Shown in pieces: positions 1 through 35,834 of a DNA stretch of 64,000 nt. This stretch comes from Blastocatellia bacterium (GTDB lineage Bacteria > Acidobacteriota > Blastocatellia > UBA7656), in the NCBI GenBank assembly GCA_963765495.1, contig CAVXWP010000008.1, forward strand, positions 1 through 64,000, given 5' to 3'. Under the pieces are notes generated by a model. The model did not search any database and was not told the DNA's origin. It was given only the letters and a program-made list of their open reading frames with translations. A program made the position numbers and the translations under genes. How positions within the stretch are numbered: the stretch's first letter is position 1; each line of letters starts with the position of its first letter.

Positions 1-2
1 TA

Positions 3-1127
3 GCAGAGCGGGTAGCAGACCGCCGCACCCTTGACTTGGTTGAGCGCTTCTTGAAATCGGGAGTGATGGAGAACTGCCTGTTCAAGCATACCGAGATCGG
101 TACGCCGCAGGGCGGGTTGTGCTCCCCACTTCTGGCGAACATCTACTTGCACCAGCTAGACCTCTACTGGTGGAACAAGTACGGAAGCCTTCACCGCAAA
201 GTCAAGGAGCGCCGCAGGAGAGAGCACATTGGCAACTGCGCGCTCATCCGATACGCCGACGACTGGCTGCTGTTGACCAACGGCGGCAAGCAAGAAGCGT
301 ATCGCCTGCGGGATGAGTTCCAGAACTTCCTTGCGGAAGAACTGAAACTCGAACTGTCGGTCGAGAAGACGCACGTGACGCACGTCAACGACGGCTTCGA
401 CTTTCTCGGCTTTCACGTCCGCCGCTACGTCAGCAAGGACGACCGACCCAAGTTATTGGTCACACCGAGCGACAAAACGCAGGCACGGTTGAAAGCCAAG
501 ATAAAGGAAATGACCGCCAGAAAGCGGTTCCTCGATCAGCCGCTGCTCAAGTTCAACGCGCTCAATGCGGTGCTGCGAGGCTGGATCAGCTACTACCGTC
601 ACTGTAACGCGAAGGAAGTTGCCAAAGACCTGGACTACTGGGTCAACGAGCGGCTTTTTCTCTGGTTACAAAAACGGCATCGACTCCCAGCGAGAAGGAT
701 CCTTGCCCTTTATAAGCAGCGCCAAAATGGTACGCGCGACAACTGGGGAATCCGCAGTGGGGAGCAGATGCTTTACCTCTATCGGATGAGTGACCAGCCG
801 ATCACCAAGTATCGGTCACGGAAGCTCGCCAATCCCTACATCACGGATGACTGGACGACAGAGCTTGAAACGGCAGAAGCACCGCTGCCCGAATATGTCT
901 GGGTCGGCAATGCCGAGAACAACGAGAAGTGGCGCGAAATCAAAGCTGAGGTGAAAGCAGAGCGCGGGGCGAAGTGTGAACTCTGTGGCAATCGGATGAA
1001 TCTCGACCTTCATCACCTGAAAGCCCGCCGTTATGGTGGGCAGGATGCCAAAGAGAATGCACAACTGCTTTGCGAGTCCTGCCATGTGCAAACGCCGACG
1101 TATGGAGACCATAGCCGGATGCAATGA
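3..1127 (+). CDS. ltrA: Group II intron reverse transcriptase/maturase with C-terminal HNH endonuclease (5' part off window)
   Basis: GTPQGGLCSPLLANIYLH, RYADD, GFDFLGF, maturase X (LRGWISYYR) and CELCG..LHH..CESCH HNH; frame stays open to the left edge. Confidence 0.95.
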   Translation, partial: AERVADRRTLDLVERFLKSGVMENCLFKHTEIGTPQGGLCSPLLANIYLHQLDLYWWNKYGSLHRKVKERRRREHIGNCALIRYADDWLLLTNGGKQEAYRLRDEFQNFLAEELKLELSVEKTHVTHVNDGFDFLGFHVRRYVSKDDRPKLLVTPSDKTQARLKAKIKEMTARKRFLDQPLLKFNALNAVLRGWISYYRHCNAKEVAKDLDYWVNERLFLWLQKRHRLPARRILALYKQRQNGTRDNWGIRSGEQMLYLYRMSDQPITKYRSRKLANPYITDDWTTELETAEAPLPEYVWVGNAENNEKWREIKAEVKAERGAKCELCGNRMNLDLHHLKARRYGGQDAKENAQLLCESCHVQTPTYGDHSRMQ

Positions 1128-1129
1128 GG

Positions 1130-1230
1130 GAAAGCCGTGTGAGATGGAAACTCTCACGCACGGTTTGGAGAGAGGAGTGGAGAAACACGTATGTTGCAAG
1201 ATATAAAAGTGCGCTCTGCTCCTACTCTAT
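1130..1230 (+). ncRNA. Group II intron A ribozyme domains V-VI
   Basis: GAAAGCCGTGTGAGATGGAAACTCTCACGCACGGTTTGG hairpin with AGC triad and GAAA loop; DVI ends in AY. Confidence 0.9.
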
Positions 1231-1895
1231 TCAGTCCGGTGCTGGCAAACCTGTTTCTACATTATGCGTTCGATGTCTGGATGAAGCGAACCTACCCACG
1301 GCTTCCCTGGTGCCGGTATGCAGATGACGGGCTTGTGCATTGCAGAAGCGAGCAGGAAGCGCAGGCTGTTAAAGCAGCGCTATCGGCAAGACTAAAGCAA
1401 TGTGGCCTGGAAATGCACCCGGACAAGACCAAGATAGTCTATTGCAAGGATGGCAGTCGAAAAGGGAAGTATCCGAACACGAAGTTTGACTTCCTGGGCT
1501 ACACCTTTCGACCACGAGTGGTGAAGAATCGCAAGAGCAACAGAATATTTGTGAGCTTCACGCCTGCGGTAAGCAAGGCGGCTGTCAAGGAGATGCAAGA
1601 AAAGACACGCAAGCTGAACTACCGAAATCGGACGGAACTGAGCTTGGAGGATATCTCGCGGCTGCACAATCCAGTCCTGAGAGGATGGATGGAGTATTAC
1701 GGGAGATACGCACCATCGGCGATGTATCCGGTCCTGAGGCACTTCAACAAGACGTTGGTGGCTTGGGCGATGAGGAAGTACAAACGACTGAAAGGGCACA
1801 AGAGGCGAGCAGGACTGTTTGTCGAAGCAATAGCAAAGAGACAGCCGGGACTGTTCGTACACTGGCGGCGAGGAATGACAGGAGGGTTTGCTTGA
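1231..1895 (+). CDS. ltrA: C-terminal half of a class D (RmInt1-like) group II intron RT/maturase, interrupted by intron A
   Basis: SPVLANLFLHYAFD, RYADDGLVHC, FDFLGYTF, NPVLRGWMEYYG, PGLFVHW; no endonuclease domain. Confidence 0.92.
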
Positions 1896-1897
1896 TA

Positions 1898-1972
1898 GGA
1901 GCGGTGTGAATCGAGAGGTTCACGCACCGTTCTGGGAGAGGCCGGGGGTGCAATTCCTCCGGCCTACTCACC
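1898..1972 (+). ncRNA. Group II intron B ribozyme domains V-VI
   Basis: DV hairpin with AGC triad and GAGA loop; DVI GGCCGG...CCGGCCTACTCACC. Confidence 0.9.
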
Positions 1973-2184
1973 ACAAGAGTCATTGGGTAAGGGATGTGAC
2001 CTATGATGAAGACCGCTCACAAGTGAGATGTGGAAGTATCCCAGAGGTAATGGCAGCATTAAGGAACACGGTAATAGGAATGATGAGGTGGGCAGGTGAA
2101 ACAAATATAGCAGCGGCGTGTGGACGTTTTGCTGCCCAGCCTTGGTCTGCTTTGGCTCTCATCGGCATTAAACCCGAAAACTGA
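1973..2184 (+). CDS. ISAs1-family transposase, C-terminal exon
   Basis: KSHWVRDVTYDEDRSQVRCGSIPEVMAALRN...NIAAA matches the ISAs1 HW-x-RDV-x-x-x-ED C-terminus. Confidence 0.88.
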
Positions 2185-2193
2185 ATAGCCCTG
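1973..2193 (+). mobile_element. ISAs1-family IS, right end
   Basis: Transposase stop followed by ATAGCCCTG (reverse complement CAGGGC, a typical ISAs1 terminus) ending at 2193. Confidence 0.75.
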
Positions 2194-2638: not shown

Positions 2639-5600
2639 ATGATCTACCAAATCGCCAGACGACGGAAGTCGGTAAACCTAAACCCTGGTCTTTCAGCAAG
2701 AACTTTATCGCGAGCCGCTCTCTTAACTCTGCTTGCGGTGTCGATTTTTCTTTCAACCTACCTGATGCGGTCCTCGCTGGCAAGCGGGCCGGTCTCCGCG
2801 CCTTCGCCAACGAAAGCCGAGATTGCCGATCGCTATGGCAAGCTACCACTCAGCTTCGAAGGTAATGAAGGGCAAACCGACCCTGAGGTCAAGTTTATCT
2901 CGCACGGTCCCGGGTATGATTTGTTCCTCACCGCAACGGGCGCTGTGCTGACTTTGCGACAACCCCACTCGCAGGCCGATCAATTCGAGCCGCCGACACC
3001 GATCGGAGAGCGGACAAATAATCAGTTGCCTAACGTTTCCGTGCTTAAACTGAAAATGATCGGCGCAGCCCCGCAGGCGCACGCGCGGGGTGAGGAGCCG
3101 CTCCCGGGGAAGATCAATTACTTAATTGGCAATGATCCTCAGAAGTGGCATGTTAACATCCCGACCTACCGGAAGGTGTATTATACGGAGATATACCCAA
3201 AGATCGATCTGGTTTACTACGGGAATCGCACAGAACTGGAGTACGACTTTGTCGTTGCGCCGGGCGGCGATTTGCAAGCGATCAGGTTCCAGGTCGAAGA
3301 GACCGACCGGATGACGCTTGACGAAGCGGGCGATTTGCATCTGGGAGTCAAACAGAGCGAAGTCACTTTGCGCAAGCCGGTGATCTATCAGTTGACCGAT
3401 CAGGGTGATCGCCGTGAAGTGAAGGGCGATTACGTCATTAAAGGCAAAGAAGTCCGCTTCAAGACGGGGGCGTTTGACGCGCACAAGCCGCTCATCATTG
3501 ACCCGGTGCTCTCGTATTCCACGATGGTCGGAGGTGCCTCCGACGAATACGCCAACGGGATTGCCGTCGATTCATCGGGTAATGCCTACATTACTGGCAG
3601 CAACACGTCGGGCGGCTTCCCGACGACGCTCGGCGCGTTTCAAACCAACAGCTCATTCTACGGTAATGCCTTTGTAACCAAGCTCGACCCGACCGGGTCC
3701 AGTCTCGTCTACTCGACCTATCTCAATGGCAGCGGCTTCACAAGAGGAAACGCCCTCGCCGTGGACTCGTCGGGATATGCTTATGTCACCGGCAGAACAA
3801 ACGCGAGCGATTTCCCCACCCTAAACCCTTTCAGGAGCAGCACGACAAACTTCTACAAGAGCACCGACAGCGGGGGGCACTGGAACAGTCAGGTGATCGG
3901 GGCGCCGGACGGGGTGGTGAATGCTCTCGCCGTGGACCCGCTCGCATCCAACACCATGTATGCCGGAATGGCCCTGACCGGCGCGGGAGGCATATATAAA
4001 ACGACCGATGGCGGCAACACCTGGACCGCTCTCAACACCGGCTTGGCCAACGCCAATTGCGGAACAATCGTAATCAATCCGACGACGACGACGACGCTCT
4101 ACGCGACCCTGAGCGCGAATGGGTCATCATCAACCGGTCTCTATAAAAGCACCGACGGGGGGAGTAGCTGGGCGATACTCACAAACGGCTTGAGCGGGGT
4201 GAACTTAATCTCGCTGGCGATTGACCCATCATCACCGACCACCGTTTACGCGGGCGGGTCATTTGATGGCGTGTACAAGAGCACCAATGGAGGCGCGTCC
4301 TGGACGAAATACACGTCGGGTCTCACGTATGGAGGGCCTCGCGCGATTGTCGTCGACCCGGTGACTCCTCAAACGGTTTATGGATGCGCCGGCGGAGGCG
4401 GAGTCTTTAAGAGCACAAACGGCGGCAGCAGTTGGGCTCAGGTCAATACAGGGCTCACGACAACGTCGGTTCAGACGCTGAACATAGATCCTACCTCGAA
4501 AGTTTACGCCGGCACGTCTGGCGGCGGCGTCTTCAAGAGCACAAACGGCGGCGCCAGCTGGACTGCGGTTAACAACGGCATCACCGGCTACATTCAGGTT
4601 AGCTCACTTGCGATCAGTGCCTCCGCCTCATCGACGGTCTATTTGGGCATGGCAGATGGTAGGATCTACAAAACGGTCGATGCAGGAAATAATTGGACCA
4701 AGGTCTATGAGACGCTGACTCGGACCAACTTTTCGGCACTGGCGATCCGCCCCGGGTCATCGGCGACCGTTTATGCAGGAGCATACATCACTGGTGGCAT
4801 GCTCAATGATTATGAGGCGTTCGTCACCAAGCTGAAGACGGATGGCTCCGGTCTGATTTATTCAACTTACCTGGGCGGCAGCGGCGACGATTTTGCCAAC
4901 AGCATCGCGGTTGACTCGTCCGGCAATGCGCTGGTGGTTGGCCAAACCGCCTCGTCGAGCTTTCCCACGATCAATGCTTTCCAGTCCACGTTGTCCGGGG
5001 CAAACGATGCCTTCGTCACGAAGTTCAATACAACAGGCGATGCGCTGTTGTATTCGACTTTTCTGGGTGGCAGCGGCTCTTTAGACATCGCGTATGGTGT
5101 GGCTGCGGACTCGTCGGGCAATGCGTACGTCACGGGAACTACCACCTCGGCCAATTTCCCCACTCTCAACGCGTTTCAGCCGATCATCGGAGACACGTTT
5201 AACGGAGATGCCTTCGTGACAAAGCTGAGCAGCGGCGGGGCACTCACCTATTCCACTTTTCTTGGTGGCCCGGACGCGGACATTGGCTGGGGGATAGCGG
5301 TGAATTCGACAGGCAACGCCCATGTGACGGGTCAGGCAGGTTCCAACTTCCCTCAGGTCAATCCGATTCAGGCAACCAGTGTCGGCTATGACACCTTCGT
5401 CACTAAGCTGAACAACTCAGGCTCCGGCCTGATCTATTCGACGTATATCGGCGGGTCAGGCAATGAAGTCGGTCGTGGCATTGCCGTTGATTCGGCGGGC
5501 AACGCTTACGTGACCGGTTATACAAACTCGGCGGATTTCCCGGTTTTGCCCGGGGCTCTCAGAACCAAGAGCCCTTTTTTTCGGACGACGAATGGGGGCG

Positions 5601-8600
5601 GTGATTGGAACAACGACAACTACGGGTTGAAGGGTGACATCGTGACCACTCTCGCTTTGGATCCGGTCAATCCTTTAACTATCTATGCAGGAACGCGAAA
5701 CGGTGTTTACAAGAGCACGGATGACGGGCAAAGCTGGGGCACTATCAACACTGGGCTTGTACAGCCCAGTATCAATGTACTGGTAGTCAATCCTAAAACG
5801 CCATCAACAATTTACCTGGGTGTCAGATTCACCGATTTCAATAATAGCAGGGGTGTTTACAAAAGCACGAATGGGGGCAACACCTGGACCGCCGCAAACA
5901 CGGGTTTGAACCCTTTCGCTGTGTCTTCAATCGCTATTGATCCCGTGACACCTTCCAACCTGTATGTGGGCGGCGATGTCAGCGGCATCTATAAGAGCAC
6001 GGACAGCGGCGCTAGCTGGACACTCCAGGGTAGTCAGACGCTTTCGTTCATTAACTCGATAGTTGTTGATCCCGCGACGCCAACAACCGTCTATGCGGCC
6101 GGTATCTTTTCTAGCGGAGGCGTTTTCAAATCCACGAATGCTGGAGTAAGTTGGCAAAGGGTTACTAACGGATTGCCCGAGGGCTCCGTTTCCAGTTTGG
6201 CGATAGATCCGATAACCCCTACGATTCTTTACGCGAGCACAAATCAAGGTATATTCAAGACCATTAACGGCGCAGCCAGTTGGACGCTGCTTAACGCAGG
6301 CATGTCCGGTCTAATCATCATTGATCCGGTTACTCCAACCACGCTTTACTTATCCTCCAGCGAAGGCGTCTTCAAGAGCACCGATGGCGGTGTTAACTTT
6401 GCTCCGGCAAACAACGGGCTGAGGTACCTAAACGTCTGGTCATTGGTCATTAACCCGAAGACACCAACGAAAATCTATGTAGGGGTAAACGTGTCTCTGC
6501 TTGACGATGACGCCTTTGTAGTCAAGCTCAACCCTGCCGGGACCGCCCTGCTCTATTCGACGCTGCTCGGGGGCAGTCCTGCCTCTGGCGATTCACTTAA
6601 CATGAACGACGAGGGCAATGCCATTGCAGTGGATTCGGTGGGGAATGCTTACGTCGCCGGGCAAACCCGCTCGCCGGACTTTCCTGTTACCCCCAATGCT
6701 TATCAGCCCTTCAACCGCGGCTTCACCGACGCCTTTGTCTCGAAGCTGACGATGTCCTACATCATCAGTGGTCACGTGTATGAAGGAAACGATGCCCCGG
6801 TGAGCGGCGCAATCGTCATCCTGAGCGATGGCGTGTCTCTGAGTTCGGTCGTGACCGAGAGCGATGGCGCTTACCAGTTCGTGCGTTTGCGCGAGGGCGG
6901 GAACTTTACGGTCAGCGCCTCGAAACCTAACTTCACCATGACGCCCGCGTCGCAGAGCTTCAGCGACCTGCACAGCAACCAGACCGTCAACTTCATCGCT
7001 ACCCCCACGCAGACGCCTTTCTATAGCGTTAGTGGCCACGTCACCAATAATAGTGCGGCGCTCGCCGACGTAACCGTAACACTGAGCGGTTCACAGCAAG
7101 GTATCACGACGACTGACGGCAACGGCGCTTTCTCATTCACACTCGCAGGCGGCGGTAACTACACCCTGACGCCTTCGCTGCTGGGCTTCACATTCACACC
7201 GCCAGGTCGAACCTTCAACAACCTGAGCGCGAACCAGACTGCCGACTTCGCAGCAACCCGCCAGAACTTCATCGTGACCAACACCAACGATCATGGACCG
7301 GGAACGTTACGGCAGGCAATTATGGATGCGAACGCCACTGCGGGTCTGGATATGATCGTCTTTAACATTCCGGGCGCTGGAGTTCATACAATCGACCTTT
7401 TACTCGCGCTGCCGGATATCACCGACCCGGTAGTGATCGACGCGACCACGCAGCCCGGGTATGCGGGCGCACCCCTGGTCGAACTCAATGGGGCATCGAT
7501 AAACGCCGGTGTCGGTTTCCGCATCAGCGCCGGCGGCAGCACCATTCGCGGGTTCATCATAAATCGATTTAACTCAGGACTAGGAATCTATCTGAATGGC
7601 GGTAGTAGCAATGTGATTCAGGGGAACTATATCGGTCTTGATCAGGAGGGGATTCTGGGGCGAGGCAATCAAAATGGGATTGCGATCTACAACTCCACAA
7701 ACAACCTGATCGGCGGAACTACGCCTGAGGCGCGCAATATCATCTCCGGAAACGGGTTTGACGGGATTGAGGTGAACGGTTCGGGAAATCAGATCCAGGG
7801 GAATTTCATAGGAACAGATGTGCGTGGCAATGCGGCGGTGCCTAACGGGAGCACCGGCATCGAGATCATCAATTATTCCGGCGTTCCTCCGAGCACCAAT
7901 AATATTATTGGAGGAACAGTGCAAGGGGCGGGCAATCTTATTTCAGGAAACCCGCGAGGAATCACTTGCACCTCAGCCACTATGGTGCAAGGAAACCTTA
8001 TTGGCACGGACAAAAACGGCACGGCGGCCATCGGCAATGGCACAGGCATTTCGGCGAGCGGCCCGGACATCCTTATTGGCGGGACTCTTCCCGGCGCGCG
8101 CAACATCATTTCGGGCAACGACCTTGGTGTCCAGATCTCCGGAATGCAAAGTCGGGTCCAGGGTAATTTCATCGGGACCGACATCACGGGCACGGTCGCG
8201 CTCGGCAATACCGCTGGCGGTGTCGATGCCAGCGCTTACGCGTTAGTCGGCGGGACCACGCCTGAGGCGCGCAACATCATTTCGGCAAATGGCAGTTGGG
8301 GCAACGTCACGCTGGGCTTTAACGATGGTGGCGGCGAGATGGCCACAGTGCAGGGGAACTATATCGGCACCGATGTGACTGGCAAGATCGCTCTGGCCAA
8401 CCCGGGATCTGGTATCGCCGTCTTCTCGGACAATAACCTGATCGGCGGGACGACGCCCGGCTCTGGCAATGTGATCTCGGGCAACGGGGTGGGCATACAG
8501 ATAGGCGGCAGCACCTCGGCGACCCTCACAGGGAATCTGGTGCAGGGTAATCTTATCGGTCTTAATGCCCCAGGCGATGCGGCGCTGCCGAACCGGTTGG

Positions 8601-11600
8601 ACGGCGTGGCCCTTTCCAACGCTTCTAACAATAGTGTCGGAAGCGAAAGCACGGGGGGCAATACCATTGCTTTCAACGGCAGGAATGGGATCATTGTTTG
8701 GTCAGGCACAGGCAATCTGCTTCTCGGGAACTCCATCTTTTCCAATAGCGCCCTGGGAATCGATCTTGCCCCCCTGGGCGTGACGGCAAACGACCCGGGG
8801 GATGCAGACGCAGGTGCGAACGACTTGCAGAACTTCCCTGTGCTGACTTCCGCCAATGCTTCCGGCGCCAACACTACGATTCAAGGCACGCTCAACAGCA
8901 CACCCGGCCAGTCGTTCCGCATCGAGCTTTTCTCCAATGCCTCATGCAACGCAAGCGGCAACGGCGAGGGCCAGGTCTTTCTCGGTTTCACCAACGTCGC
9001 TACCGACGGCGCGGGCAACACGAGCTTCTCGCTACAGGTGCCGACGTCGTCGCTGGTCGGCCCTTCGATCACCGCCACCGCCACCAATCTTTCTACCAGC
9101 GCCACCTCGGAGTTCTCGCCCTGCTTCAACGCGAATCCGACCGCCGTCACCCTCGTTTCATTCAACGCGACTGCCTACGGCAAAGGCGTCTTCATCGAGT
9201 GGCGCACGGGCCTTGAGGTCAGTAATCTCGGGTTCCGCCTCTTCCGCGATCAGGGCGGCAAGCTCGAGTCGCTCACCCCACAACTCATCGCTGGCTCTGC
9301 CCTCAAGGCTGGCGCTGATCTGCAAAGCGGCGAAAGCTACGCATGGTGGGACGAGGCGTCCGACGAAGGAGCTACCTACTGGCTTGAAGATATTGACCTC
9401 GCGGAGCAGTCCACGTGGTGGGGGCCTTTCTATGCAAAGGCTGATCCCGGTGCGGCTCCTTCACGAGCAAAGGCTGTGGCGCTCGCATCTCTGGGCCAAT
9501 CGTCATCCGCCACTGAAGCGACGCGTCTGGTTGAACCGGTGCTGGCGGTCCCTCGTTCATCAGCGGCGCAACTGAGCGCACAGACTTCGCTGGCCGGGCT
9601 GACGGCACTGAAGATCAACATCAAGCGCGAGGGCTGGTACCGCATCAGCTTCTCTGAGATGGCGGCCTCGGGCTTCAACGCGGCGAGTGACTCCCGCCTG
9701 TGGCAACTGTTTGCCGAGGGCCAGGAGGTGCCGCTGCTAGTCACTACCTCCGGCAGCAAAGACAACGGCTCCGACTCTGCCTCGTCGATTGAGTTCTATG
9801 GCATCGGGCTTGATACGTCCACCACAGATACGCGCACCTACTGGCTGGTCTCTGGAAACCAGCCGGGCCGCCGCATCAAACTGACCGAGAGCAGCGGCTC
9901 ACCTGCAGCAGCGACGAGCTTTATGCAAACCGTCGAGCGGCACGACCGCACGATCTACTTCGCGGGGCTGCACAATGGCGAGACCGAGAACTTCTTCGGC
10001 GCGGTCGTCACTACCGAGTCGGTCGAGCAGGCCGTAGAGACGCGCCGCCTCGACATGTCCGCCTCCGAGCAAGTGACCATTGAGGCGCGCCTGCAAGGCG
10101 TGACTTTGTTGCCGCACCGCGTGAGCGTGCAACTTAACGATAGCCCACTCGGGGAGAGCGTTTTCAGCGGCCAGCAGCAGGGCGTGCTGCGCGTCGAAGT
10201 GGCCGCCTCAATGCTGCGCGAAGGAAGCAACAGCATCCGATTGACGTCCACAGGCGGTGCAGGCGATGTTAGCCTCGTTGATCGCATTCGCATCACCTAC
10301 CCGCACCGCTTCAGGGCCGATGATAACCAGTTGACGCTGACCGTCACTGACGGCCAGCGCGTTCAGATCGATGGCTTCACATCCGCAGCCATTCGCGCCT
10401 TCGACGTCACCAACGAGAAGTCGCCGCGCGAGATTGTCGGCCAGATCAGCGGCGGCAAGGGCGGCTACCAGATCAGCGTGGGTGCCACCGGCAGCGGCCC
10501 GCACCGATTGCTTGTAACGAGCGCAGAACGACTGAGCCACCCGGCTTCGTTGGCGATGAATTTGCCGTCCGCCTTGCGCACGCCGCGCCACGAAGCCGAC
10601 CTGCTGATCCTCACCCGCAGCGACCTTTTCGATGCGCTTCAGCCATTGCTGCGGCTCCGCGAGGCACAGGGGCTTAAGGTAGAGGTGGCTGACATCGAAG
10701 ATGTCTTCGACGAGTTCAGCTACGGCGAGCGCTCGCCGCAAGCGGTCAGGGAGATGCTGGCCTACGCACTTTCGCAGTGGGCACGGGCGCCGCGCTATTT
10801 GTTGCTGGTCGGCGACGCGTCTTACGATCCCCGTGATTACCTGGGCTATGGCAGCAACGATCTCGTGCCGACCAGGCTGATCGACACCAATTATCTGGAG
10901 ACTGCGAGTGACGACTGGCTGGCCGACTTCGACGGCGATGGTATAAGCGATATCGCCGTCGGGCGGTTGCCCGTGCGGACGTCGGAGGAGCTTACCGCCG
11001 TCGTAGCGAAGTTGCTGCGCTACGAGCAGACGGGAACACCGGCGGCGGCGCTGCTGGTGTCGGACCGCAACGAAGAGTATGACTTCGAGGCAGCAAGCGT
11101 CAACTTGCGAGGACTGCTCAGCGGTCTGCGCATTGGTGAGTTGCGGCGCGGGCAATTGGAACCGGAGGCGGCCAGGAAAGCGCTTTACACAGCCTTGAGT
11201 AGCGGACAGCGGCTGGTGAATTATATCGGCCACGGCTCGGCCAGTGTGTGGCGTGGCAATCTGCTGACGGACAAAGATGCACTGGCGTTAAACAATCCGC
11301 ACCTGCCGGTGTTTGTGATGATGACGTGTTTGAACGGCTACTTCGCCGAACCGGGGTTCGACTCTCTGGCCGAGGCACTGGTGAAAGCCCCAGACGGTGG
11401 CGCCATTGCGGCGTGGGCGTCGACGGGGGTGACGCTGCCGGAGACGCAGGCGGCCATCGACCAGGCGTTCTTCCGCTTGCTGCTGCAGAGTGGGCTGCGA
11501 AGCGCACGAGGGCTGACGCTGGGCGAGGCGGCGCGGCAAGCAAAGGCGGCGACAGGAGACATGAACGTGCGGCGAACGTGGGTGCTGCTGGGTGATCCTT

Positions 11601-11617
11601 CAATGCGTCTGCACTGA
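2639..11617 (+). CDS. Giant secreted multidomain protein: SBBP propeller with two inserted BNR/VPS10-like propellers, two carboxypeptidase-regulatory-like domains, parallel beta-helix, Ig-like linker, C25 (gingipain/PorU-like) cysteine peptidase
   Basis: N-terminal hydrophobic segment; PLSFEGNEGQ/IIDPVL; AYVTG repeats; xKSTxGGxxW repeats; GNxIGTD repeats; YLLLVGD, VGRLPV, YIGHG, MMTCLNG, LLGDP. Confidence 0.9.
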   Translation: MIYQIARRRKSVNLNPGLSARTLSRAALLTLLAVSIFLSTYLMRSSLASGPVSAPSPTKAEIADRYGKLPLSFEGNEGQTDPEVKFISHGPGYDLFLTATGAVLTLRQPHSQADQFEPPTPIGERTNNQLPNVSVLKLKMIGAAPQAHARGEEPLPGKINYLIGNDPQKWHVNIPTYRKVYYTEIYPKIDLVYYGNRTELEYDFVVAPGGDLQAIRFQVEETDRMTLDEAGDLHLGVKQSEVTLRKPVIYQLTDQGDRREVKGDYVIKGKEVRFKTGAFDAHKPLIIDPVLSYSTMVGGASDEYANGIAVDSSGNAYITGSNTSGGFPTTLGAFQTNSSFYGNAFVTKLDPTGSSLVYSTYLNGSGFTRGNALAVDSSGYAYVTGRTNASDFPTLNPFRSSTTNFYKSTDSGGHWNSQVIGAPDGVVNALAVDPLASNTMYAGMALTGAGGIYKTTDGGNTWTALNTGLANANCGTIVINPTTTTTLYATLSANGSSSTGLYKSTDGGSSWAILTNGLSGVNLISLAIDPSSPTTVYAGGSFDGVYKSTNGGASWTKYTSGLTYGGPRAIVVDPVTPQTVYGCAGGGGVFKSTNGGSSWAQVNTGLTTTSVQTLNIDPTSKVYAGTSGGGVFKSTNGGASWTAVNNGITGYIQVSSLAISASASSTVYLGMADGRIYKTVDAGNNWTKVYETLTRTNFSALAIRPGSSATVYAGAYITGGMLNDYEAFVTKLKTDGSGLIYSTYLGGSGDDFANSIAVDSSGNALVVGQTASSSFPTINAFQSTLSGANDAFVTKFNTTGDALLYSTFLGGSGSLDIAYGVAADSSGNAYVTGTTTSANFPTLNAFQPIIGDTFNGDAFVTKLSSGGALTYSTFLGGPDADIGWGIAVNSTGNAHVTGQAGSNFPQVNPIQATSVGYDTFVTKLNNSGSGLIYSTYIGGSGNEVGRGIAVDSAGNAYVTGYTNSADFPVLPGALRTKSPFFRTTNGGGDWNNDNYGLKGDIVTTLALDPVNPLTIYAGTRNGVYKSTDDGQSWGTINTGLVQPSINVLVVNPKTPSTIYLGVRFTDFNNSRGVYKSTNGGNTWTAANTGLNPFAVSSIAIDPVTPSNLYVGGDVSGIYKSTDSGASWTLQGSQTLSFINSIVVDPATPTTVYAAGIFSSGGVFKSTNAGVSWQRVTNGLPEGSVSSLAIDPITPTILYASTNQGIFKTINGAASWTLLNAGMSGLIIIDPVTPTTLYLSSSEGVFKSTDGGVNFAPANNGLRYLNVWSLVINPKTPTKIYVGVNVSLLDDDAFVVKLNPAGTALLYSTLLGGSPASGDSLNMNDEGNAIAVDSVGNAYVAGQTRSPDFPVTPNAYQPFNRGFTDAFVSKLTMSYIISGHVYEGNDAPVSGAIVILSDGVSLSSVVTESDGAYQFVRLREGGNFTVSASKPNFTMTPASQSFSDLHSNQTVNFIATPTQTPFYSVSGHVTNNSAALADVTVTLSGSQQGITTTDGNGAFSFTLAGGGNYTLTPSLLGFTFTPPGRTFNNLSANQTADFAATRQNFIVTNTNDHGPGTLRQAIMDANATAGLDMIVFNIPGAGVHTIDLLLALPDITDPVVIDATTQPGYAGAPLVELNGASINAGVGFRISAGGSTIRGFIINRFNSGLGIYLNGGSSNVIQGNYIGLDQEGILGRGNQNGIAIYNSTNNLIGGTTPEARNIISGNGFDGIEVNGSGNQIQGNFIGTDVRGNAAVPNGSTGIEIINYSGVPPSTNNIIGGTVQGAGNLISGNPRGITCTSATMVQGNLIGTDKNGTAAIGNGTGISASGPDILIGGTLPGARNIISGNDLGVQISGMQSRVQGNFIGTDITGTVALGNTAGGVDASAYALVGGTTPEARNIISANGSWGNVTLGFNDGGGEMATVQGNYIGTDVTGKIALANPGSGIAVFSDNNLIGGTTPGSGNVISGNGVGIQIGGSTSATLTGNLVQGNLIGLNAPGDAALPNRLDGVALSNASNNSVGSESTGGNTIAFNGRNGIIVWSGTGNLLLGNSIFSNSALGIDLAPLGVTANDPGDADAGANDLQNFPVLTSANASGANTTIQGTLNSTPGQSFRIELFSNASCNASGNGEGQVFLGFTNVATDGAGNTSFSLQVPTSSLVGPSITATATNLSTSATSEFSPCFNANPTAVTLVSFNATAYGKGVFIEWRTGLEVSNLGFRLFRDQGGKLESLTPQLIAGSALKAGADLQSGESYAWWDEASDEGATYWLEDIDLAEQSTWWGPFYAKADPGAAPSRAKAVALASLGQSSSATEATRLVEPVLAVPRSSAAQLSAQTSLAGLTALKINIKREGWYRISFSEMAASGFNAASDSRLWQLFAEGQEVPLLVTTSGSKDNGSDSASSIEFYGIGLDTSTTDTRTYWLVSGNQPGRRIKLTESSGSPAAATSFMQTVERHDRTIYFAGLHNGETENFFGAVVTTESVEQAVETRRLDMSASEQVTIEARLQGVTLLPHRVSVQLNDSPLGESVFSGQQQGVLRVEVAASMLREGSNSIRLTSTGGAGDVSLVDRIRITYPHRFRADDNQLTLTVTDGQRVQIDGFTSAAIRAFDVTNEKSPREIVGQISGGKGGYQISVGATGSGPHRLLVTSAERLSHPASLAMNLPSALRTPRHEADLLILTRSDLFDALQPLLRLREAQGLKVEVADIEDVFDEFSYGERSPQAVREMLAYALSQWARAPRYLLLVGDASYDPRDYLGYGSNDLVPTRLIDTNYLETASDDWLADFDGDGISDIAVGRLPVRTSEELTAVVAKLLRYEQTGTPAAALLVSDRNEEYDFEAASVNLRGLLSGLRIGELRRGQLEPEAARKALYTALSSGQRLVNYIGHGSASVWRGNLLTDKDALALNNPHLPVFVMMTCLNGYFAEPGFDSLAEALVKAPDGGAIAAWASTGVTLPETQAAIDQAFFRLLLQSGLRSARGLTLGEAARQAKAATGDMNVRRTWVLLGDPSMRLH

Positions 11618-12170
11618 AGGAAGTTGAAGGCCAGATGTGATTTACGTGAGCTCGACCTCACTCCGCTATCCCTATAGCGTTTTGCAAATGGATGCAGCTT
11701 GAAGGAACAACCCGAATGAATACATTTTATTGTGGTTGCCCGGATCGCCCGAGATGGCCTGAGATGTGCTTCGCACACGGCGGGCGATGAGTGCCCTCGC
11801 GCTTACGACGGATTCGGGCAGGGACAAGCCCGCGCCGTGCGAAGCACCGTTTGCGCCAATCGCCCCACAGCTACACGCAATTGCAAACAGCTATAATGCC
11901 CTGTCCACGGTTCTGAAAAATTCTTTTCCTATTCGATCGCTTCAGCCATCTATAATCTCCAGAGTCTCCTGCGAATCGCGCTACCGATAGCCGCTGCCAT
12001 CGGGTAAACTGGACCAGCCGTCGGCTCTGGCGGTACGATGGTCGGTTTACGCTCGCCGCCTTGCGTCCCGGAGCCGGACATAAAATGCGCCTCAAATTGG
12101 TAGAATACGGGTAGAAGTTCCTTGCCGTTAAAGCGGTCAGGCATGTCGGTCAAGCTTTATTTGGAGGCTT

Positions 12171-13804: not shown

Positions 13805-15288
13805 CAATACCTGTCAAATAAGCCACGAGACGGCATTTATGGCATACTTTCGAGTTGATAGAAACGAAAGTTGTCAAGGAGCCGCCTCGCTTGAGTTACA
13901 AAATACGCCATATTACCGATGAACGAAAGTTCTGTGATCATCTCTCTATTGATGCCATCTCTGATGCCGTCTCTATTGAATTAATCCAAGAGGTTCTTGA
14001 TCTCCACAATGCCTCTCACAAACGACATCGCAAACTCACTATGAGCGCTGTCGTGCTCATTATCATCGCTATGAATCTGTTTTCACATTTCTCTATTGGA
14101 CATGTCGTGCGGAGAGTCTTTCAGGGTTTGCGTTTCATCTGGCCTGATCCTGACTTTCCTCCTCCTAAACACAATGCAATATCTTATCGTCGTTACCAGT
14201 TGGGGCCTCGTCCTTTAGTCTCATTGTTTCATCGTGTTGCACAACCTATGGCAACAGATGAAACTCGTGGCGCTTTTGCATTTGGACTGCGATTAATGGC
14301 CCTTGACGGCTCTATTGAAGAAGCCCCGGACACTCCGGAAAATGATGCTGCTTTTGGGCGGTTGGCTTCTGATCGCGGGAAGTGTTGCTTCGTGCAAATT
14401 CAGGCTGTCTACCTTGTAGAATGTGGCACTCATGCCATTATTGATGCAGGATTTTGGCCTGCAAAAAGCAGTGAACGAGTTGGAGGTTTTCGCCTGCTAA
14501 GAAGCCTGGGAAAAGGGATGCTTTTGATGTGGGATAGAGGCTTTCACTCCTATGATATGGTAGTTGCGACACTTGAGCGAGGGTCTCAATGTCTTGGTAG
14601 ATTGCCTGACAATGTGAAACCGGAACACCTTTGCACGCTAGAAGATGGAACGTGGTTAGGCTATATCAGACCAACACAAAAAGGACGGCGAAATAAAGAA
14701 GACAAACAGTTGGTTCGGATAATCTCTTACACTTTTACAGACCCGACCCAAGCAGGATACCAGAAGAGATACCGCATAGTCACAACACTATTGGATGAAA
14801 GGAAGTATCCGGCCAAAGAGTTGGTGTGTTTGTATCACGAGCGATGGGAAATCGAGATAGTCATAGATGAGATAGATACACATCAACGACTAGCAGGAAG
14901 GCCATTGAGAAGCCTAAAACCAGAGGGAGTCATACAAGAGTTATACGCATTATTGATAGCGCATTATGCAGTAAGAAAACTGATACACGAAGCAGCAAAT
15001 GAGGCAGAAGTAGACCCGGATCGGATAAGTTTTGTAGGAGCATTGAGGATAATCCAAGAAGCAATACCAGAATTCCAAATGGTAGAAAAGGAGCAAAAGG
15101 AGCAATTATACAAGAGGCTATTGAGAGATATAGGAGAGCAAAGGTTACCAGAAAGGCGAGCCAGATCGAATCCGCGAGTAGTGAAGAGAAAGATGAGTGG
15201 GTTCAATCTGAAGCGACCACAGCATTACAACTGGCCCAAGCCACAGCTACGATTTTGTGATGCTATTTTGCTTATTTGACAGGTATTG
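13805..15288 (+). mobile_element. Complete IS4-family element with 19-bp terminal inverted repeats and 10-bp target duplication
   Basis: CAATACCTGTCAAATAAGC (13805-13823) and GCTTATTTGACAGGTATTG (15270-15288); GGCCTAACTG at 13795-13804 and 15289-15298. Confidence 0.95.
13855..15279 (+). CDS. IS4-family DDE transposase (start codon uncertain)
   Basis: LMALDGS, LLMWDRGF, LYHERWEIE, LRSLKPEGVIQELY. Confidence 0.93.
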   Translation: MIETKVVKEPPRLSYKIRHITDERKFCDHLSIDAISDAVSIELIQEVLDLHNASHKRHRKLTMSAVVLIIIAMNLFSHFSIGHVVRRVFQGLRFIWPDPDFPPPKHNAISYRRYQLGPRPLVSLFHRVAQPMATDETRGAFAFGLRLMALDGSIEEAPDTPENDAAFGRLASDRGKCCFVQIQAVYLVECGTHAIIDAGFWPAKSSERVGGFRLLRSLGKGMLLMWDRGFHSYDMVVATLERGSQCLGRLPDNVKPEHLCTLEDGTWLGYIRPTQKGRRNKEDKQLVRIISYTFTDPTQAGYQKRYRIVTTLLDERKYPAKELVCLYHERWEIEIVIDEIDTHQRLAGRPLRSLKPEGVIQELYALLIAHYAVRKLIHEAANEAEVDPDRISFVGALRIIQEAIPEFQMVEKEQKEQLYKRLLRDIGEQRLPERRARSNPRVVKRKMSGFNLKRPQHYNWPKPQLRFCDAILLI

Positions 15289-15289
15289 G

Positions 15290-15374
15290 GCCTAACTGCT
15301 CATTCCAGCGGACGCGCTTTCCACCGTCTCGTGTTCCACAAGCTACCGGCGCGCCGCTGAACTCGTCGTTAGGC
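15290..15374 (+). other. Integron attC recombination site
   Basis: R'' GCCTAAC, 5-nt spacer, L'' ATTCCAGC with extrahelical base, GC stem, L' GCTGAAC, 5-nt spacer, R' GTTAGGC. Confidence 0.85.
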
Positions 15375-15591
15375 TTCCGCGTAAACCACCAGAACATTGG
15401 TATTAATAAACCGAAGCAATTCAGATTTTTTCAGCCGAATTCGCCAACCCCAATTGATTATCTGGACTATTCTACGTAGAGTCATTGCTCTTTAGGATGC
15501 ATATGTGGAGGTTAGGCGCTAATCCTTTGTACGCTTGTTATTCGCTTGCGGTGGAGGTAAAATCTGAACTCTCGAAGCCTTAAATTGGGAG

Positions 15592-16908
15592 ATGTATATG
15601 ACCCAACAAAGAAAGCCCTTTAGGCTTACCTTAACCATGCGTCACTGCATTAGTTTCTTATTCATGCTCCTGCTTCCGATTTTGGTAGCGGCGCAGATGA
15701 AGAAGGTCGCCGAGATAGACGCTTATGTCAAACCCTTGGTGAGAGTCAATCAATTTTCGGGCGTTATCTTGGCATCCTACAAAGGCAAGGTCATTTACGA
15801 AAAAGCCTTCGGCTTAGCCCAAGCGGAACTTGGCGTGCCGAACCGGGCCGACACCGTTTTCGGCATCGCTTCCGTAACAAAGCCCATGACAATGACCATT
15901 GCCTTGCGCCTGATTGAAGAAGGTAAGTTAGGGCGGCAAGATAAGCTGAGCAAGTGGCTGCCTGACTTTCCAAAAGGAGATCAGATTACTGTTGAGATGT
16001 TGATGCTTCACCGTTCGGGCATCCCCCACCGGGGCACCAACCCCGAAGAAGAATCCTTGCGCTATTCGGCAGCCGACATGGTCGCAAAAGCCAAGCAGGT
16101 GCTGTTTGACTTCCAGCCCGGTGAACGCGAGGGGTATAGCTCGTTGGGCTATTCCGTGCTCGCGAGAGTTTTAGAACTTGCTTCAGGTAAAAGTTTTGCG
16201 CAGCTCTTGCGGGAATACGTCTTCAACCCCGCGGGAATGAAGGACAGCACGGAGTTCAAGGGCGAAACGATACTGCCGCGCCGGGCGCAGGAGTATTTTT
16301 TGGAGCCGTTGGGCTGGGTTCACGCCCCACTCAAAGATTATTCGTTCCTGGTCGGGGCGGGTTCGGTCTTCAGCACGGCACATGATGTTTTTAGATTCGG
16401 AGAGTCAGTTACCAACGGAACATACGGCGCGAGTGTGAAAAAAGAACTGACTGATGAAACTGGGTTTGGAGAAAACGGCGTCAGTAACGGCTTCCGTTGT
16501 TATGTTGACACGGAAAAAGATTTTGGCTTCGTCGTCATCTCCAACTTACAATCCGGAGCCAATGATTTACTCGTGCGCGATTTACCCCGTATTTTGCAAG
16601 ACAAGCCTGTTACTCCTCCCGTTCCTCCCAATTTCAATTTCATCAAGCTTTCTAGAGAGCAGATGAAGGAATATGTGGCCGATTATAAATTCCCTAAATT
16701 CACAAACACGGTAATTCTCACAGATGACCAGTTAATTTCCGGCGACTACAAAATCTATCCCATTGGTAAGGACCGTTTCTTTCGTCTTGCCGATTATGCC
16801 ACGCTTACTTTTGTCCGTAATGCGGACGGCACAATCAAAGGCCTGGAGTGGGACGGTATAAGGGGCGGCAAAGTAGCCGGGATTGGTCAACGACAAAAAG
16901 GCTCTTGA
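15592..16908 (+). CDS. Secreted serine hydrolase, beta-lactamase/AmpC-like family, probable gene cassette
   Basis: Signal peptide, FGIASVTK (SxxK), HRSGI, YSSLGY; lies between attC cores. Confidence 0.9.
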   Translation: MYMTQQRKPFRLTLTMRHCISFLFMLLLPILVAAQMKKVAEIDAYVKPLVRVNQFSGVILASYKGKVIYEKAFGLAQAELGVPNRADTVFGIASVTKPMTMTIALRLIEEGKLGRQDKLSKWLPDFPKGDQITVEMLMLHRSGIPHRGTNPEEESLRYSAADMVAKAKQVLFDFQPGEREGYSSLGYSVLARVLELASGKSFAQLLREYVFNPAGMKDSTEFKGETILPRRAQEYFLEPLGWVHAPLKDYSFLVGAGSVFSTAHDVFRFGESVTNGTYGASVKKELTDETGFGENGVSNGFRCYVDTEKDFGFVVISNLQSGANDLLVRDLPRILQDKPVTPPVPPNFNFIKLSREQMKEYVADYKFPKFTNTVILTDDQLISGDYKIYPIGKDRFFRLADYATLTFVRNADGTIKGLEWDGIRGGKVAGIGQRQKGS

Positions 16909-33157: not shown

Positions 33158-33205
33158 CGAAGCGGCTCATCTGTGCGGCTGTTCGAAATTTTCGATCTGA
33201 TCTTT

Positions 33206-35740: not shown

Positions 35741-35766
35741 TCTAAACCCAACTCCATAAATAGGGT

Positions 35767-35814
35767 AGTTGAAATAGACCACGGATGACGCGGATGCGGC
35801 GGATTTTCGCGGAT
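35767..35814 (-). repeat. Single arm of the dispersed CGGAT-unit palindrome
   Basis: Reverse complement of 42662-42709 with one mismatch. Confidence 0.85.
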
Positions 35815-35834
35815 CTGAACAAAGTTTTATCGGG

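What the first reader, a model, noticed from the sequence alone, without database searches (positions are those of the whole stretch)
1..2193. Three-layer nesting: HNH group II intron inside a class D intron inside an ISAs1 transposase
Seen: intron A ends at 1230 and the sequence resumes mid-codon as TC AGT CCG (A|TC, the ISP of the RT4 GTPQGGxISP motif) of intron B's RT. Intron B ends at 1972 and resumes as AC AAG AGT CAT TGG (A|AC, the N-KSHW of ISAs1). Known: twintrons and class D introns in IS elements each occur. Inference: intron A homes to a highly conserved RT motif of another intron class, so it could parasitise many introns; B's maturase needs A to splice first, and the transposase needs both, which makes an ordered splicing cascade.
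Basis: partly seen in the sequence, partly recalled or inferred. Interest (0 to 1): 0.72.

Follow-up and report, generated by a model that had tools for sequence, protein, structure and literature searches.

The report
Intron inside intron inside transposase gene
The first 2.2 kb of this contig is the tail end of a stack of three selfish DNA elements (a self-splicing intron inside another intron's enzyme gene, itself inside a jumping gene's transposase), and the two introns belong to lineages that habitually land on conserved enzyme motifs of other mobile elements.

Summary
Rfam finds group II intron domains V/VI ending exactly at 1230 and 1972. After 1230 the frame resumes as (I)SPVLANLF, RT motif 4 of a second, endonuclease-less RT/maturase. 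After 1972 it resumes as (N)KSHWVRDV, the C-terminus of an ISAs1-family transposase whose right end lies near 2193.

The window is the start of contig C8, so the 5' halves of all three layers are missing. They were not found elsewhere in the assembly either. A complete parallel nest on contig C2 (IS3 transposase > TeI4h-like intron C > an identical copy of intron A) shows both junctions.

In 34 of 36 loci holding relatives of intron A's protein (25 other assemblies), at least one flank could be read. All 34 sit at the same codon of PQGG-x|-SPLLAN in another RT gene.

Intron B carries the class D C-terminal motif. Of 66 mapped relatives, 25 sit at W-x-[IV]-E|N of DDE transposases. An uninterrupted ISAs1 relative reads HWHIE-N-KSHW.

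Nested introns, homing into intron ORFs and class D introns in IS elements are all published, and this scan has logged similar nests on other DNA. The added value is the lineage-wide motif targeting and the cross-class invasion. Ordered splicing is inferred, not shown.

The parts
1..1230 (+). Intron A, 3' part (nt 1184-2413 of a 2413-nt group II intron); cut by the contig end
   Evidence: 100% identical to C2:557049-558280 and C9:2-1233. The full intron is defined on C2 as L001 2866-5278, with 5' GTGCG and 3' ...CTCTAT.
3..1127 (+). Intron A protein, residues 185-558 of 558 (RT motifs 4-7, maturase X, HNH endonuclease); stop codon at 1125-1127
   Evidence: Pfam RVT_1 3.7e-16, GIIM 9.4e-17, HNH 7.4e-8. 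Full 558-aa ORF at L001 3499-5175. Best solved relatives 6me0_C (219.9 bits) and LtrA 5g2x_C (198.1 bits).
1130..1230 (+). Intron A domains V and VI, 3' splice site after 1230
   Evidence: RF00029, 59.2 bits, full model 1-77.
1231..1972 (+). Intron B, 3' part (class D-like, no endonuclease domain); single copy in the assembly
   Evidence: blastn finds only itself plus a 67-70% relative at C9:~35 kb. Relatives L049 and L047 are full introns with Rfam D1D4-2 5' domains.
1233..1895 (+). Intron B protein, C-terminal 220 aa from S-P of RT motif 4 through maturase X and the class D C-terminal motif; stop codon at 1893-1895
   Evidence: Pfam RVT_1 1.3e-15 (profile positions 126-205), GIIM 9.6e-19, no HNH. 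TIGR04416 positions 187-352. C-terminus ...VEAIAKRQPGLFVHW against the motif in PMC4615759.
1897..1972 (+). Intron B domains V and VI, 3' splice site after 1972
   Evidence: RF00029, 53.3 bits. The same ...CCTACTCACC| end occurs in metagenomic relatives.
1973..2184 (+). ISAs1-family transposase, last 69 codons plus the AC of a split codon; stop codon at 2182-2184
   Evidence: NF033564 positions 279-313 of 314, E 5e-6, below cut-off because it is a fragment. 85% identical to the C-terminus of a 375-aa ISAs1 transposase in G198 that scores 229.8 bits.
2185..2193 (+). Right end of the ISAs1-type insertion sequence (approximate)
   Evidence: DNA similarity to the G198 copy runs from 1973 to about 2193 and then stops.

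Best explanation
Window 1-2193 is the 3' part of a real three-layer nest built by two successive site-specific retrohoming events. First, an ISAs1-family insertion sequence was invaded by a class D-like group II intron (B, no endonuclease domain). B sits just after the Glu codon of the transposase motif HWHIE|N. Second, B's own reverse-transcriptase gene, which lies in intron domain IV, was invaded at RT motif 4 (PQGG-x|-SP) by intron A. Intron A is 2413 nt long, encodes a 558-aa RT-maturase-HNH protein, and has at least three identical copies in this genome. Both introns belong to lineages whose normal target is a conserved enzyme motif of another mobile element: A's lineage targets RT motif 4 of other RTs, mostly group II introns, and B's closest relatives target the W-x-[IV]-E|N motif of DDE transposases. 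Target choice is probably RNA-guided: a conserved CCYUUG in A's domain I can pair with the conserved CARGG (Gln-Gly codons) of the target (inferred). Expression would have to run from the inside out. A splices first, using its own intact protein. That restores B's reading frame, so B's maturase can be made. B then splices and restores the transposase message. The anatomy is shown. The order of splicing and current activity are inferred from published twintrons.
For: Anatomy: (domains V/VI at 1130-1230 and 1897-1972; in-frame resumption of RT motif 4 and of the ISAs1 C-terminus). Complete parallel nest on C2: IS3 orfAB with rve domain | intron C (GTGCG at L001 1579; Rfam D1D4-7, 93 bits) | GTPQGGP + A|GTGCG... 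intron A ...CTCTAT|TC TCG CCG (ISPTLMN) | intron C RT-X-HNH and domains V/VI to 6350 | TAT ATA AAA, IS3 resumes. A second copy of that nest's 3' part starts contig C9. Empty sites: IS3 copy at C9 reads KYEDV-YIKGY; ISAs1 relative in G198 reads CAT ATA GAA A|AC AAG AGC CAT TGG; 74 of 79 assessable metagenomic relatives of B have an uninterrupted PQG...SP site. Lineage of A: 36 loci from 25 assemblies at 64-79% protein identity. 34 of 36 gave at least one flank (22 on the 5' side, 28 on the 3' side), and all read ...PQGG-x | SP[LT]L[AS][NS] (one reads DP). 22 of 33 loci scanned have a second same-strand domain V/VI downstream, so the hosts are usually introns. Lineage of B: class D motif; 78% identity to a Methylomagnum plasmid intron and 62.7% to copies on S. 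meliloti GR4 plasmids; of 80 metagenomic relatives, 66 had a mapped end and 25 of those sit at W-x-[IV]-E|N of DDE transposases, including ISAs1-type ...N-x-LHW.... Junction 1972/1973 is bridged by an 848-nt contig of run X1, which may be the source sample and so is not independent. All visible reading frames are open and both proteins keep YADD.
Against: The 5' halves of intron A, intron B and the transposase at this locus are not seen. The contig starts inside intron A, and searches of the whole assembly found no matching N-terminal RT half for B and no matching ISAs1 N-terminus. No RNA data bear on splicing. My EBS1 assignment is weak: own-exon versus other-exon pairing at the candidate loop was 4.33 versus 4.02, with 212 of 10,000 permutations as high, and the sequences are related. 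If B's lost 5' exon resembles its 93%-identical relative L059 (GGC GGG GTA A|), it would pair poorly with A's candidate EBS1, which fits intron C's site (GACCGA, 5 of 6 pairs). None of the 28 readable hosts of A's relatives, and none of 79 relatives of B, shows an A-type intron in a class D RT, so this pairing is a single case.
Confidence: 0.8

Rival explanations
1. The nest is real but inert. It is a graveyard of mobile elements in which the 5' parts are truncated or the outer layers are dead, so no splicing cascade operates and the transposase is never restored.
For: This ISAs1 type has no other copy in the assembly; the only other ISAs1 genes are five 419-aa paralogs at 38% identity. Intron B is single-copy, and its only relative in the genome (intron D, C9:~34.9-35.7 kb) is 5'-truncated next to another IS and frameshifted. 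The genome is full of IS copies. Among hosts of A's relatives elsewhere, 6 of 28 have a stop within 70 codons of the junction.
Against: Every reading frame visible in the window is open to its natural stop, and YADD and HNH motifs are intact. The three intron A copies are 100% identical over 1232 nt, which points to recent mobility. 15 of 28 host RT halves elsewhere stay open through all 250 codons read.
Confidence: 0.25
2. The junction at 1230/1231 is an assembly chimera: a repeat (intron A) was wrongly joined to a unique region at the contig end.
For: Intron A is a multi-copy exact repeat. C8 and C9 both begin at the same position of it.
Against: The join falls exactly at the intron's 3' splice site, in the codon phase and motif (x|-SP of RT motif 4) used by 28 of 28 readable 3' junctions of A's relatives. 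The shared sequence beyond the intron end is only 2 nt, too short to cause a misjoin.
Confidence: 0.04
3. Intron A reached intron B not by cognate retrohoming but by ectopic retrotransposition into a look-alike site, or by recombination between RT genes that already carried it.
For: A's candidate EBS1 loop fits intron C's site, not the site of B's closest relative L059. A-in-class-D was seen in 0 of 79 relatives of B and 0 of 28 hosts of A's relatives.
Against: The 3' junction is precise to the base and identical in phase to the lineage's normal site. B and C share no DNA similarity detectable by blastn that could support recombination. B's actual 5' exon is unknown.
Confidence: 0.15

Closest known systems
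Nested group II introns of Methanosarcina acetivorans (Dai & Zimmerly 2003; known to me through passages of Zimmerly & Semper 2015, PMC4424553; the original paper is not held)
   Same: Repeated site-specific homing of group II introns into other group II introns, giving nests of up to five and a perpetual homing site.
   Different: Those nests have no coding flanking exons. Here the outermost layer is a transposase gene, the inner and middle introns are of different classes, and the target is a defined RT motif shared across intron types. I could not check which site the archaeal introns use.
Thermosynechococcus elongatus twintrons and IS-borne introns (Mohr, Ghanem & Lambowitz 2010, PMC2882425, passages)
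   Same: Introns evolved to insert at a conserved site in another intron's RT ORF or in an insertion sequence. The inner copies are identical while the outer ones have diverged. Intron C here resembles the TeI4h-type RT (307 bits to 6me0_C; the identity of that chain as TeI4h is recalled).
   Different: There the inner introns are ORF-less and sit between the first two ATGs of the ORF, so the protein can still be made. Here the inner intron carries its own RT-HNH protein and splits the catalytic RT domain, so the host protein cannot be made without splicing.
Sequentially spliced twintron of Trichodesmium erythraeum (Pfreundt & Hess 2015, PMC4649490, abstract and passages)
   Same: A bacterial intron-in-intron whose parts splice in order.
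   Different: That one is in a host gene and was shown by RNA data. Here there is no RNA evidence and the host is a mobile element.
RmInt1 and relatives, class D (IIB3) introns in insertion sequences (PMC4615759, passages)
   Same: RT without D/En domains; C-terminal class D motif; natural targets inside IS transposase genes or IS ends. Intron B is 62.7% identical over 220 aa to copies on S. meliloti GR4 plasmids.
   Different: Intron B's close relatives target the W-x-[IV]-E|N motif of DDE_Tnp_1-type transposases (ISAs1 and others), not ISRm2011-2. That the GR4 hits are RmInt1 itself is inferred, because those records carry no annotation.
Porphyridium purpureum plastid twintrons (Perrineau et al. 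2015, PMC4476101, passages)
   Same: One inner RT-encoding intron (mat1f) found inside two different outer introns at the same domain IV site.
   Different: A plastid system in which the outer proteins are already remnants. There is no third layer.

Membership tests
Group II intron (intron A) | Domains V and VI with catalytic AGC and bulged A, 3' end AY | tested here: met
   RF00029, 59.2 bits against a gathering score of 40; ends ...CUCUAU at 1230.
Group II intron (intron A) | 5' end GUGYG and domain I-IV ribozyme | tested here: met
   Not in the window. In the identical C2 copy the intron starts GTGCG at L001 2866. The domain I-IV match to Rfam D1D4-5 is weak (19.5 bits, below gathering).
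Group II intron (intron A) | Intron-encoded RT + maturase (X) protein in domain IV | tested here: met
   Pfam RVT_1, GIIM, HNH. TIGR04416 383 bits for the full C2 copy.
Group II intron (intron A) | EBS-IBS base pairing with flanking exons | tested here: inconclusive
   Conserved CCYUUG (nt 212-217) can pair with conserved CARGG at -13..-9. The candidate EBS1 loop gives only a modest own-versus-other signal.
Group II intron (intron A) | Self-splicing / lariat formation | not testable with these tools
   No RNA run holds the stretch (see Tried and rejected).
Bacterial class D (IIB3) group II intron (intron B) | Protein lacks DNA-binding/endonuclease domains | tested here: met
   The ORF stops at 1893-1895, shortly after the GIIM domain, with no HNH hit.
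Bacterial class D (IIB3) group II intron (intron B) | C-terminal class D motif LX3AX3PXLF[V/A]HW (PMC4615759) | tested here: met
   V-EAI-A-KRQ-P-G-LFVHW: all positions fit except V for the first L. The paralog intron D (L-GRI-A-RDK-P-N-LFVHW) fits fully.
Bacterial class D (IIB3) group II intron (intron B) | IIB3-type 5' ribozyme domains | not testable with these tools
   The 5' half is absent from the window and the assembly. Relatives L049 and L047 match Rfam D1D4-2 at 101 and 116 bits, but I have no tool result linking that model to class D.
Bacterial class D (IIB3) group II intron (intron B) | Phylogenetic placement of the RT with reference class D proteins | not tested
   No labelled reference set was available. 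There is only similarity to rhizobial plasmid copies.
ISAs1-family insertion sequence (outer layer) | Transposase matching NF033564 above cut-off | tested here: inconclusive
   The window fragment scores 25.9 bits against a cut-off of 70, covering 35 of 314 positions. Its 85%-identical full-length relative scores 229.8 bits.
ISAs1-family insertion sequence (outer layer) | Complete transposase and both IS ends | tested here: not met
   Only the last 69 codons and the right end (~2193) are present. No matching N-terminus is in the assembly.
Twintron (intron within intron) | Both junctions of the inner intron lie inside the outer intron, and removal restores the outer sequence | tested here: inconclusive
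   For A in B, only the 3' junction is visible. For A in C on contig C2, both junctions are visible and removal gives GTPQGGP-I-SPTLMN in frame.

The most novel reading that the evidence does not exclude
Intron A represents a lineage of protein-coding, endonuclease-bearing group II introns that are obligate parasites of other retroelements. Their homing site is the DNA encoding RT motif 4 (PQGG-x|-SP), so they can cross between intron classes (here TeI4h-like, class D and, elsewhere, their own kind). Together with B's lineage, which lands on the catalytic W-x-[IV]-E|N motif of DDE transposases, and a serine-recombinase element seen in the same RT motif, this suggests a general rule: mobile elements preferentially target the most conserved catalytic-motif codons of other mobile elements' enzymes. 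The result would be stacks in which each inner layer gates expression of the layer outside it.
Probability: 0.4. Interest if true: 0.6.

Novelty: new variant of a known kind. Interest (0 to 1): 0.5.

Why it matters
Nested introns show how selfish elements find safe and always-available landing sites. Here the landing sites are the most conserved catalytic motifs of other selfish elements' own enzymes, which cannot easily mutate away. An inner intron that splits the catalytic domain of its host's reverse transcriptase makes that host dependent on the parasite's splicing. In turn, the transposase becomes dependent on both. If the cascade runs, it is a built-in, layered brake on intron and IS activity. 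The lineage-wide site specificity gives a simple system for testing how group II introns recognise a protein-coding motif across divergent DNA sequences, with 36 natural intron and target pairs in hand. It also warns annotators that RT and transposase "fragments" at contig ends in repeat-rich genomes may be halves of nested elements.

Tried and rejected
1. My first EBS1 guess (UCGGUC, intron nt 280-285) was rejected. That stretch does not covary with the -6..-1 exon bases in 22 relatives.

2. Upstream halves: Pfam RVT_1, TIGR04416 and NF033564 searches of the whole assembly found no N-terminal RT half for B and no matching ISAs1 N-terminus. A contig-end blast found no contig ending in intron A's 5' part.

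3. Reads: no RNA holder is listed for the stretch. In run X1 no listed contig covers 1232-1441, so the C8-type junction at 1230/1231 was not bridged. Contigs branch there into the C2-type exon and a further variant. A plant-metagenome contig (X3, record 9) covers 1893-1997 with 2 differences, but only 25 nt lie beyond 1972, too few to count as bridging.

4. The further 3' exon variant seen as a loose end in X1 is not next to an intron A end anywhere in the assembly. The two 13-mer matches on C1 and a 12-mer match on C4 are chance.

5. Solved structures: no match for B's half at E <= 1e-10, so there is no structural route to its class.

6. Dai & Zimmerly 2003 (PMC1370365) is not held, so I could not check which ORF site the archaeal introns use.

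7. Seven literature searches found no paper describing a lineage that homes to RT motif 4. The library lacks most subscription papers and supplements are closed, so this does not prove absence.

8. In one search my intron-A reference for typing hosts was cut in the wrong frame. The two self-type hosts (L034, L045) were recognised from the printed peptides instead.

9. Earlier-findings look-ups by place and by sequence returned nothing.

10. The short-ORF relatives of the ISAs1 C-terminus (for example in G174) carry no domain V/VI in the loci scanned, so they are not further examples of this nest.
Full report
WHAT IS THERE

The window is the first 64 kb of contig C8 of a 7.3-Mb, 17-contig assembly. 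Rfam's group II intron model (domains V/VI) matches 1130-1230 (59.2 bits) and 1897-1972 (53.3 bits). Both are full-length matches above the gathering score.

Window 3-1127 is an open frame running off the contig start. It encodes the last 374 residues of an RT + maturase + HNH protein (Pfam RVT_1, GIIM, HNH). Directly after 1230 the sequence reads TC AGT CCG GTG CTG GCA AAC. The frame then runs for 220 codons through the second half of an RT domain (Pfam profile positions 126-205) and a maturase domain. It ends without any endonuclease domain.

Directly after 1972 the sequence reads AC AAG AGT CAT TGG. The frame runs 69 codons to a stop at 2182-2184, with a weak match to the last 35 positions of the ISAs1 transposase model.

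WHY THE UPSTREAM TEST CANNOT BE DONE HERE, AND WHAT REPLACES IT

Base 1 is a contig end inside intron A. Window 1-1232 is 100% identical to C2:557049-558280 and to C9:2-1233, so the assembly broke in a repeat. Whole-assembly searches found no N-terminal RT half that could belong to intron B and no N-terminus for this ISAs1 type. The smallest contig is 29.7 kb, so the short piece between repeats was probably not retained.

Contig C2 holds a complete nest of the same design:
- An IS3-type orfA/orfB (rve domain) is interrupted after KYEEV by intron C. Intron C has 5' GTGCG and matches Rfam D1D4-7 at 93 bits.
- Intron C's RT frame runs to GTPQGGP and then meets GTGCG, the 5' end of intron A.
- Intron A is 2413 nt, with an intact 558-aa ORF, and ends ...CTCTAT.
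- Intron C resumes as TC TCG CCG (I-S-P-T-L-M-N), continues through RT, X and HNH to its own domains V/VI, and the IS3 frame resumes as Y-I-K-G-Y.

Contig C9 begins with a second copy of that nest's 3' part, with one mismatch in 2533 nt and a different flank.

The same intron A has thus entered two different introns at the same codon: intron C, whose protein resembles PDB 6me0 chain C at 307 bits, and intron B.

THE OUTER LAYER

A class-wide genome search found uninterrupted relatives of the 69-residue fragment. The best, in G198, is 85% identical and present in three copies. Its 375-aa protein scores 229.8 bits on NF033564 (ISAs1; cut-off 70) and carries DDE_Tnp_1. It reads ...ARQHWHIE-N-KSHWVRDVT..., and its DNA reads CAT ATA GAA A|AC AAG AGC CAT TGG.

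That is the empty site for intron B, and it confirms the predicted split Asn codon.

INTRON B IS CLASS D-LIKE, AND ITS KIN TARGET A TRANSPOSASE MOTIF

B's protein lacks an endonuclease domain and ends ...VEAIAKRQPGLFVHW.... The class D motif given in PMC4615759 is LX3AX3PXLF[V/A]HW. B fits it except for V in place of the first L. A decayed paralog, intron D at C9:~34.9-35.7 kb, fits it fully.

B's half is 78% identical to an intron on a Methylomagnum plasmid and 62.7% identical to copies on S. meliloti GR4 plasmids. The Methylomagnum copy is a full intron (Rfam D1D4-2, 101 bits) sitting at RWKVE| of a DDE transposase. A 56% relative in G024 sits at FIDE| of an IS630-like gene.

A metagenome scan kept the best 80 of 514 confirmed relatives, at 60-93% identity. 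With a crude end-mapping, 66 of the 80 gave at least one flank:
- 25 of 66 lie at W-x-[IV]-E | N (codons GAR A|AY) of DDE transposases. These include ISAs1-type exons such as [21 protein letters not shown].
- 8 of 66 lie at F-x-FLG[FY]| of other RT genes.
- 3 of 66 lie at SPxLANxxLH| of other RT genes.
- 30 of 66 were other or unclear.

INTRON A'S LINEAGE ALWAYS SITS IN RT MOTIF 4

A scan of one genome per species with A's protein gave 36 loci in 25 assemblies at 64-79% identity. By record title, 23 assemblies are cyanobacterial, one is a Chloroflexia MAG and one a Trueperaceae MAG.

I mapped intron ends by similarity to A's termini and read the flanks. 34 of the 36 loci gave at least one flank. 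L021 ends at both intron termini, and L038 showed no terminus.
- All 22 readable 5' flanks end ...PQGG-x.
- All 28 readable 3' flanks begin SP[LT]L[AS][NS]... (one reads DP).
- All are in the same codon phase as in the window.

Rfam scans covered 33 of the 36 loci (L021, L032 and L033 were not sent). They found a second same-strand domain V/VI downstream in 22, so the hosts are usually introns.

The host RT halves are diverse. 23 of 28 gave a blastp hit to intron C's half at 30-42% identity, always scoring higher than against B's half. The other 5 are too decayed to hit. Two hosts (L034, L045) are A-type RTs themselves, so the lineage also nests in itself, and L045 has three domain V/VI units in a row.

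Conversely, 74 of 79 assessable relatives of B have an uninterrupted motif 4, and none carries an A-type intron. The window's A-in-class-D combination is therefore a rare cross-class event.

MECHANISM: SHOWN AND INFERRED

Shown:
- precise junctions;
- identical inner copies in different hosts;
- empty sites for every layer;
- intact frames and catalytic motifs.

Inferred:
- Target recognition. A conserved CCYUUG at nt 212-217 of A and its relatives can pair with the conserved CARGG of the Gln-Gly codons at -13..-9. This would explain how one RNA finds a protein motif across divergent hosts.
- A hairpin at nt ~305-330 has conserved stems and a hypervariable loop. The loop is fully complementary to the intron's own -6..-1 bases in several relatives, for example L013, L025 and L027. 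Over 21 introns the own-versus-other difference is small: 4.33 against 4.02, with 212 of 10,000 permutations as high. Two rows, L041 and L044, were dropped because their domain I is replaced from that point, and the sequences are related. I treat this EBS1 assignment as tentative.
- Expression order. A sits in the domain IV ORF of B and splits B's catalytic RT domain. No intact class D protein is encoded elsewhere in the assembly. B's maturase can therefore only be made after A is removed, and the transposase only after B is removed. This follows published twintron behaviour (PMC4424553 section 'Twintrons'; PMC4649490), but there is no RNA evidence here.

INDEPENDENT SUPPORT FROM READS

In run X1, which may be the source sample, an 848-nt contig covers 1442-2289 and so bridges the 1972/1973 junction. 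The intron A part lies on a separate contig that branches at 1231/1232 into several 3' exons. What was not covered is listed under Tried and rejected.

COMPARISON WITH WHAT IS KNOWN

All of the following are published:
- twintrons;
- homing of introns into other introns' ORFs (Methanosarcina);
- introns at conserved sites of intron ORFs and IS elements (T. elongatus);
- ordered twintron splicing (Trichodesmium, Euglena);
- class D introns in IS elements (RmInt1);
- the observation that other introns and transposases are the commonest neighbours of bacterial group II introns (PMC7306698).
These rest.

This scan has also logged nests of this general kind on other DNA (for example e1-3115587, e1-1213170, e1-775528), though none with a look-alike of intron A.

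What I did not find in seven searches is a description of either of two things: a protein-coding intron lineage whose conserved homing site is RT motif 4 across intron classes, or class D relatives keyed to the DDE W-x-[IV]-E|N motif. The key 2003 paper and all supplements were out of reach, so priority is uncertain.

VERDICT

This is a real three-layer nest, of which only the 3' half is assembled. It is a new variant of a known kind, of moderate interest. That interest comes mainly from the lineage-wide targeting of conserved catalytic motifs, not from the nesting itself.

Noticed in passing
L093 970-2976 (minus strand) within L093 1-3814; also L063 659-2386, L062, L114: In 4 of 79 metagenomic relatives of intron B, the RT ORF is interrupted a few codons upstream of intron A's site by a non-intron insert. 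In L093 the RT reads GTPQGGVV|, then comes about 2 kb carrying a 668-aa large serine recombinase on the opposite strand, then |GGVISPVLAN. GGV[VI] is present on both sides. A small serine-recombinase element seems to target the same RT motif.
   Followed up: partly
L096, L097, L099, L100, L104, L107, L110, L111; L123, L124, L135: More distant class D-like relatives of intron B (61-69% identity) sit in other RT genes: 8 at F-x-FLG[FY]| and 3 at SPxLANxxLH|. Homing into conserved RT motifs therefore recurs in a second intron lineage.
   Followed up: partly
G000 C9:~34860-36150 (L008 2860-4150): Intron D is a 5'-truncated relative of intron B with a 1-nt deletion in the G-run of its PQGG codons. 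It abuts an IS3-type element and is inserted at ITY|IR of another IS3 copy. That IS3 copy is 71% identical to the C2 copy upstream of intron C's site and 99% identical downstream of it, so it looks chimeric.
   Followed up: partly
G000 C2:8389-9207, 10964-11782, 14927-15745 (minus strand): Three copies of an ~820-nt element with domain V/VI (64 bits each) and about 70% identity to intron C's 5' part, but no RT hit. They are probably ORF-less derivatives of a C-type intron, spaced 2.6 and 4.0 kb apart.
   Followed up: no
G000 C9:~32807-33405 (L008 807-1405): A run of roughly 500 A/T bases, read as poly-Lys or poly-Phe ORFs on the two strands. It is either an assembly artefact or a very long homopolymer.
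   Followed up: no
G000 C8:239427-239498 and C8:570592-570798 (minus strand): A further isolated domain V/VI match (46 bits) and an isolated N-terminal RT fragment (TIGR04416 positions 2-68). They are remnants of other group II introns on the same contig.
   Followed up: no
window 1231/1232, run X1 loose ends: Contigs of run X1 continue from intron A's 3' end into a further exon beginning T ATC GCC GCT GTT G (x-S-P-L-L). This exon is not next to an intron A end anywhere in the assembly, so at least one more RT gene in that sample carries this intron.
   Followed up: partly
window 2639-11617: A single 2992-aa ORF starts 450 nt downstream of the IS end. It has a signal-like N-terminus and long arrays of repeats (YSTYLGGSG...GNAYVTG and ...YKSTDGGxSW... 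types).
   Followed up: no
L045 3902-7144; L034: In Chroococcopsis gigantea, an intron-A-type intron sits in the RT motif 4 of another A-type RT (exon SPLLANIYLHQLDLYWWNKYG). L045 has three domain V/VI units in series, so it is a self-nest of at least three layers.
   Followed up: partly
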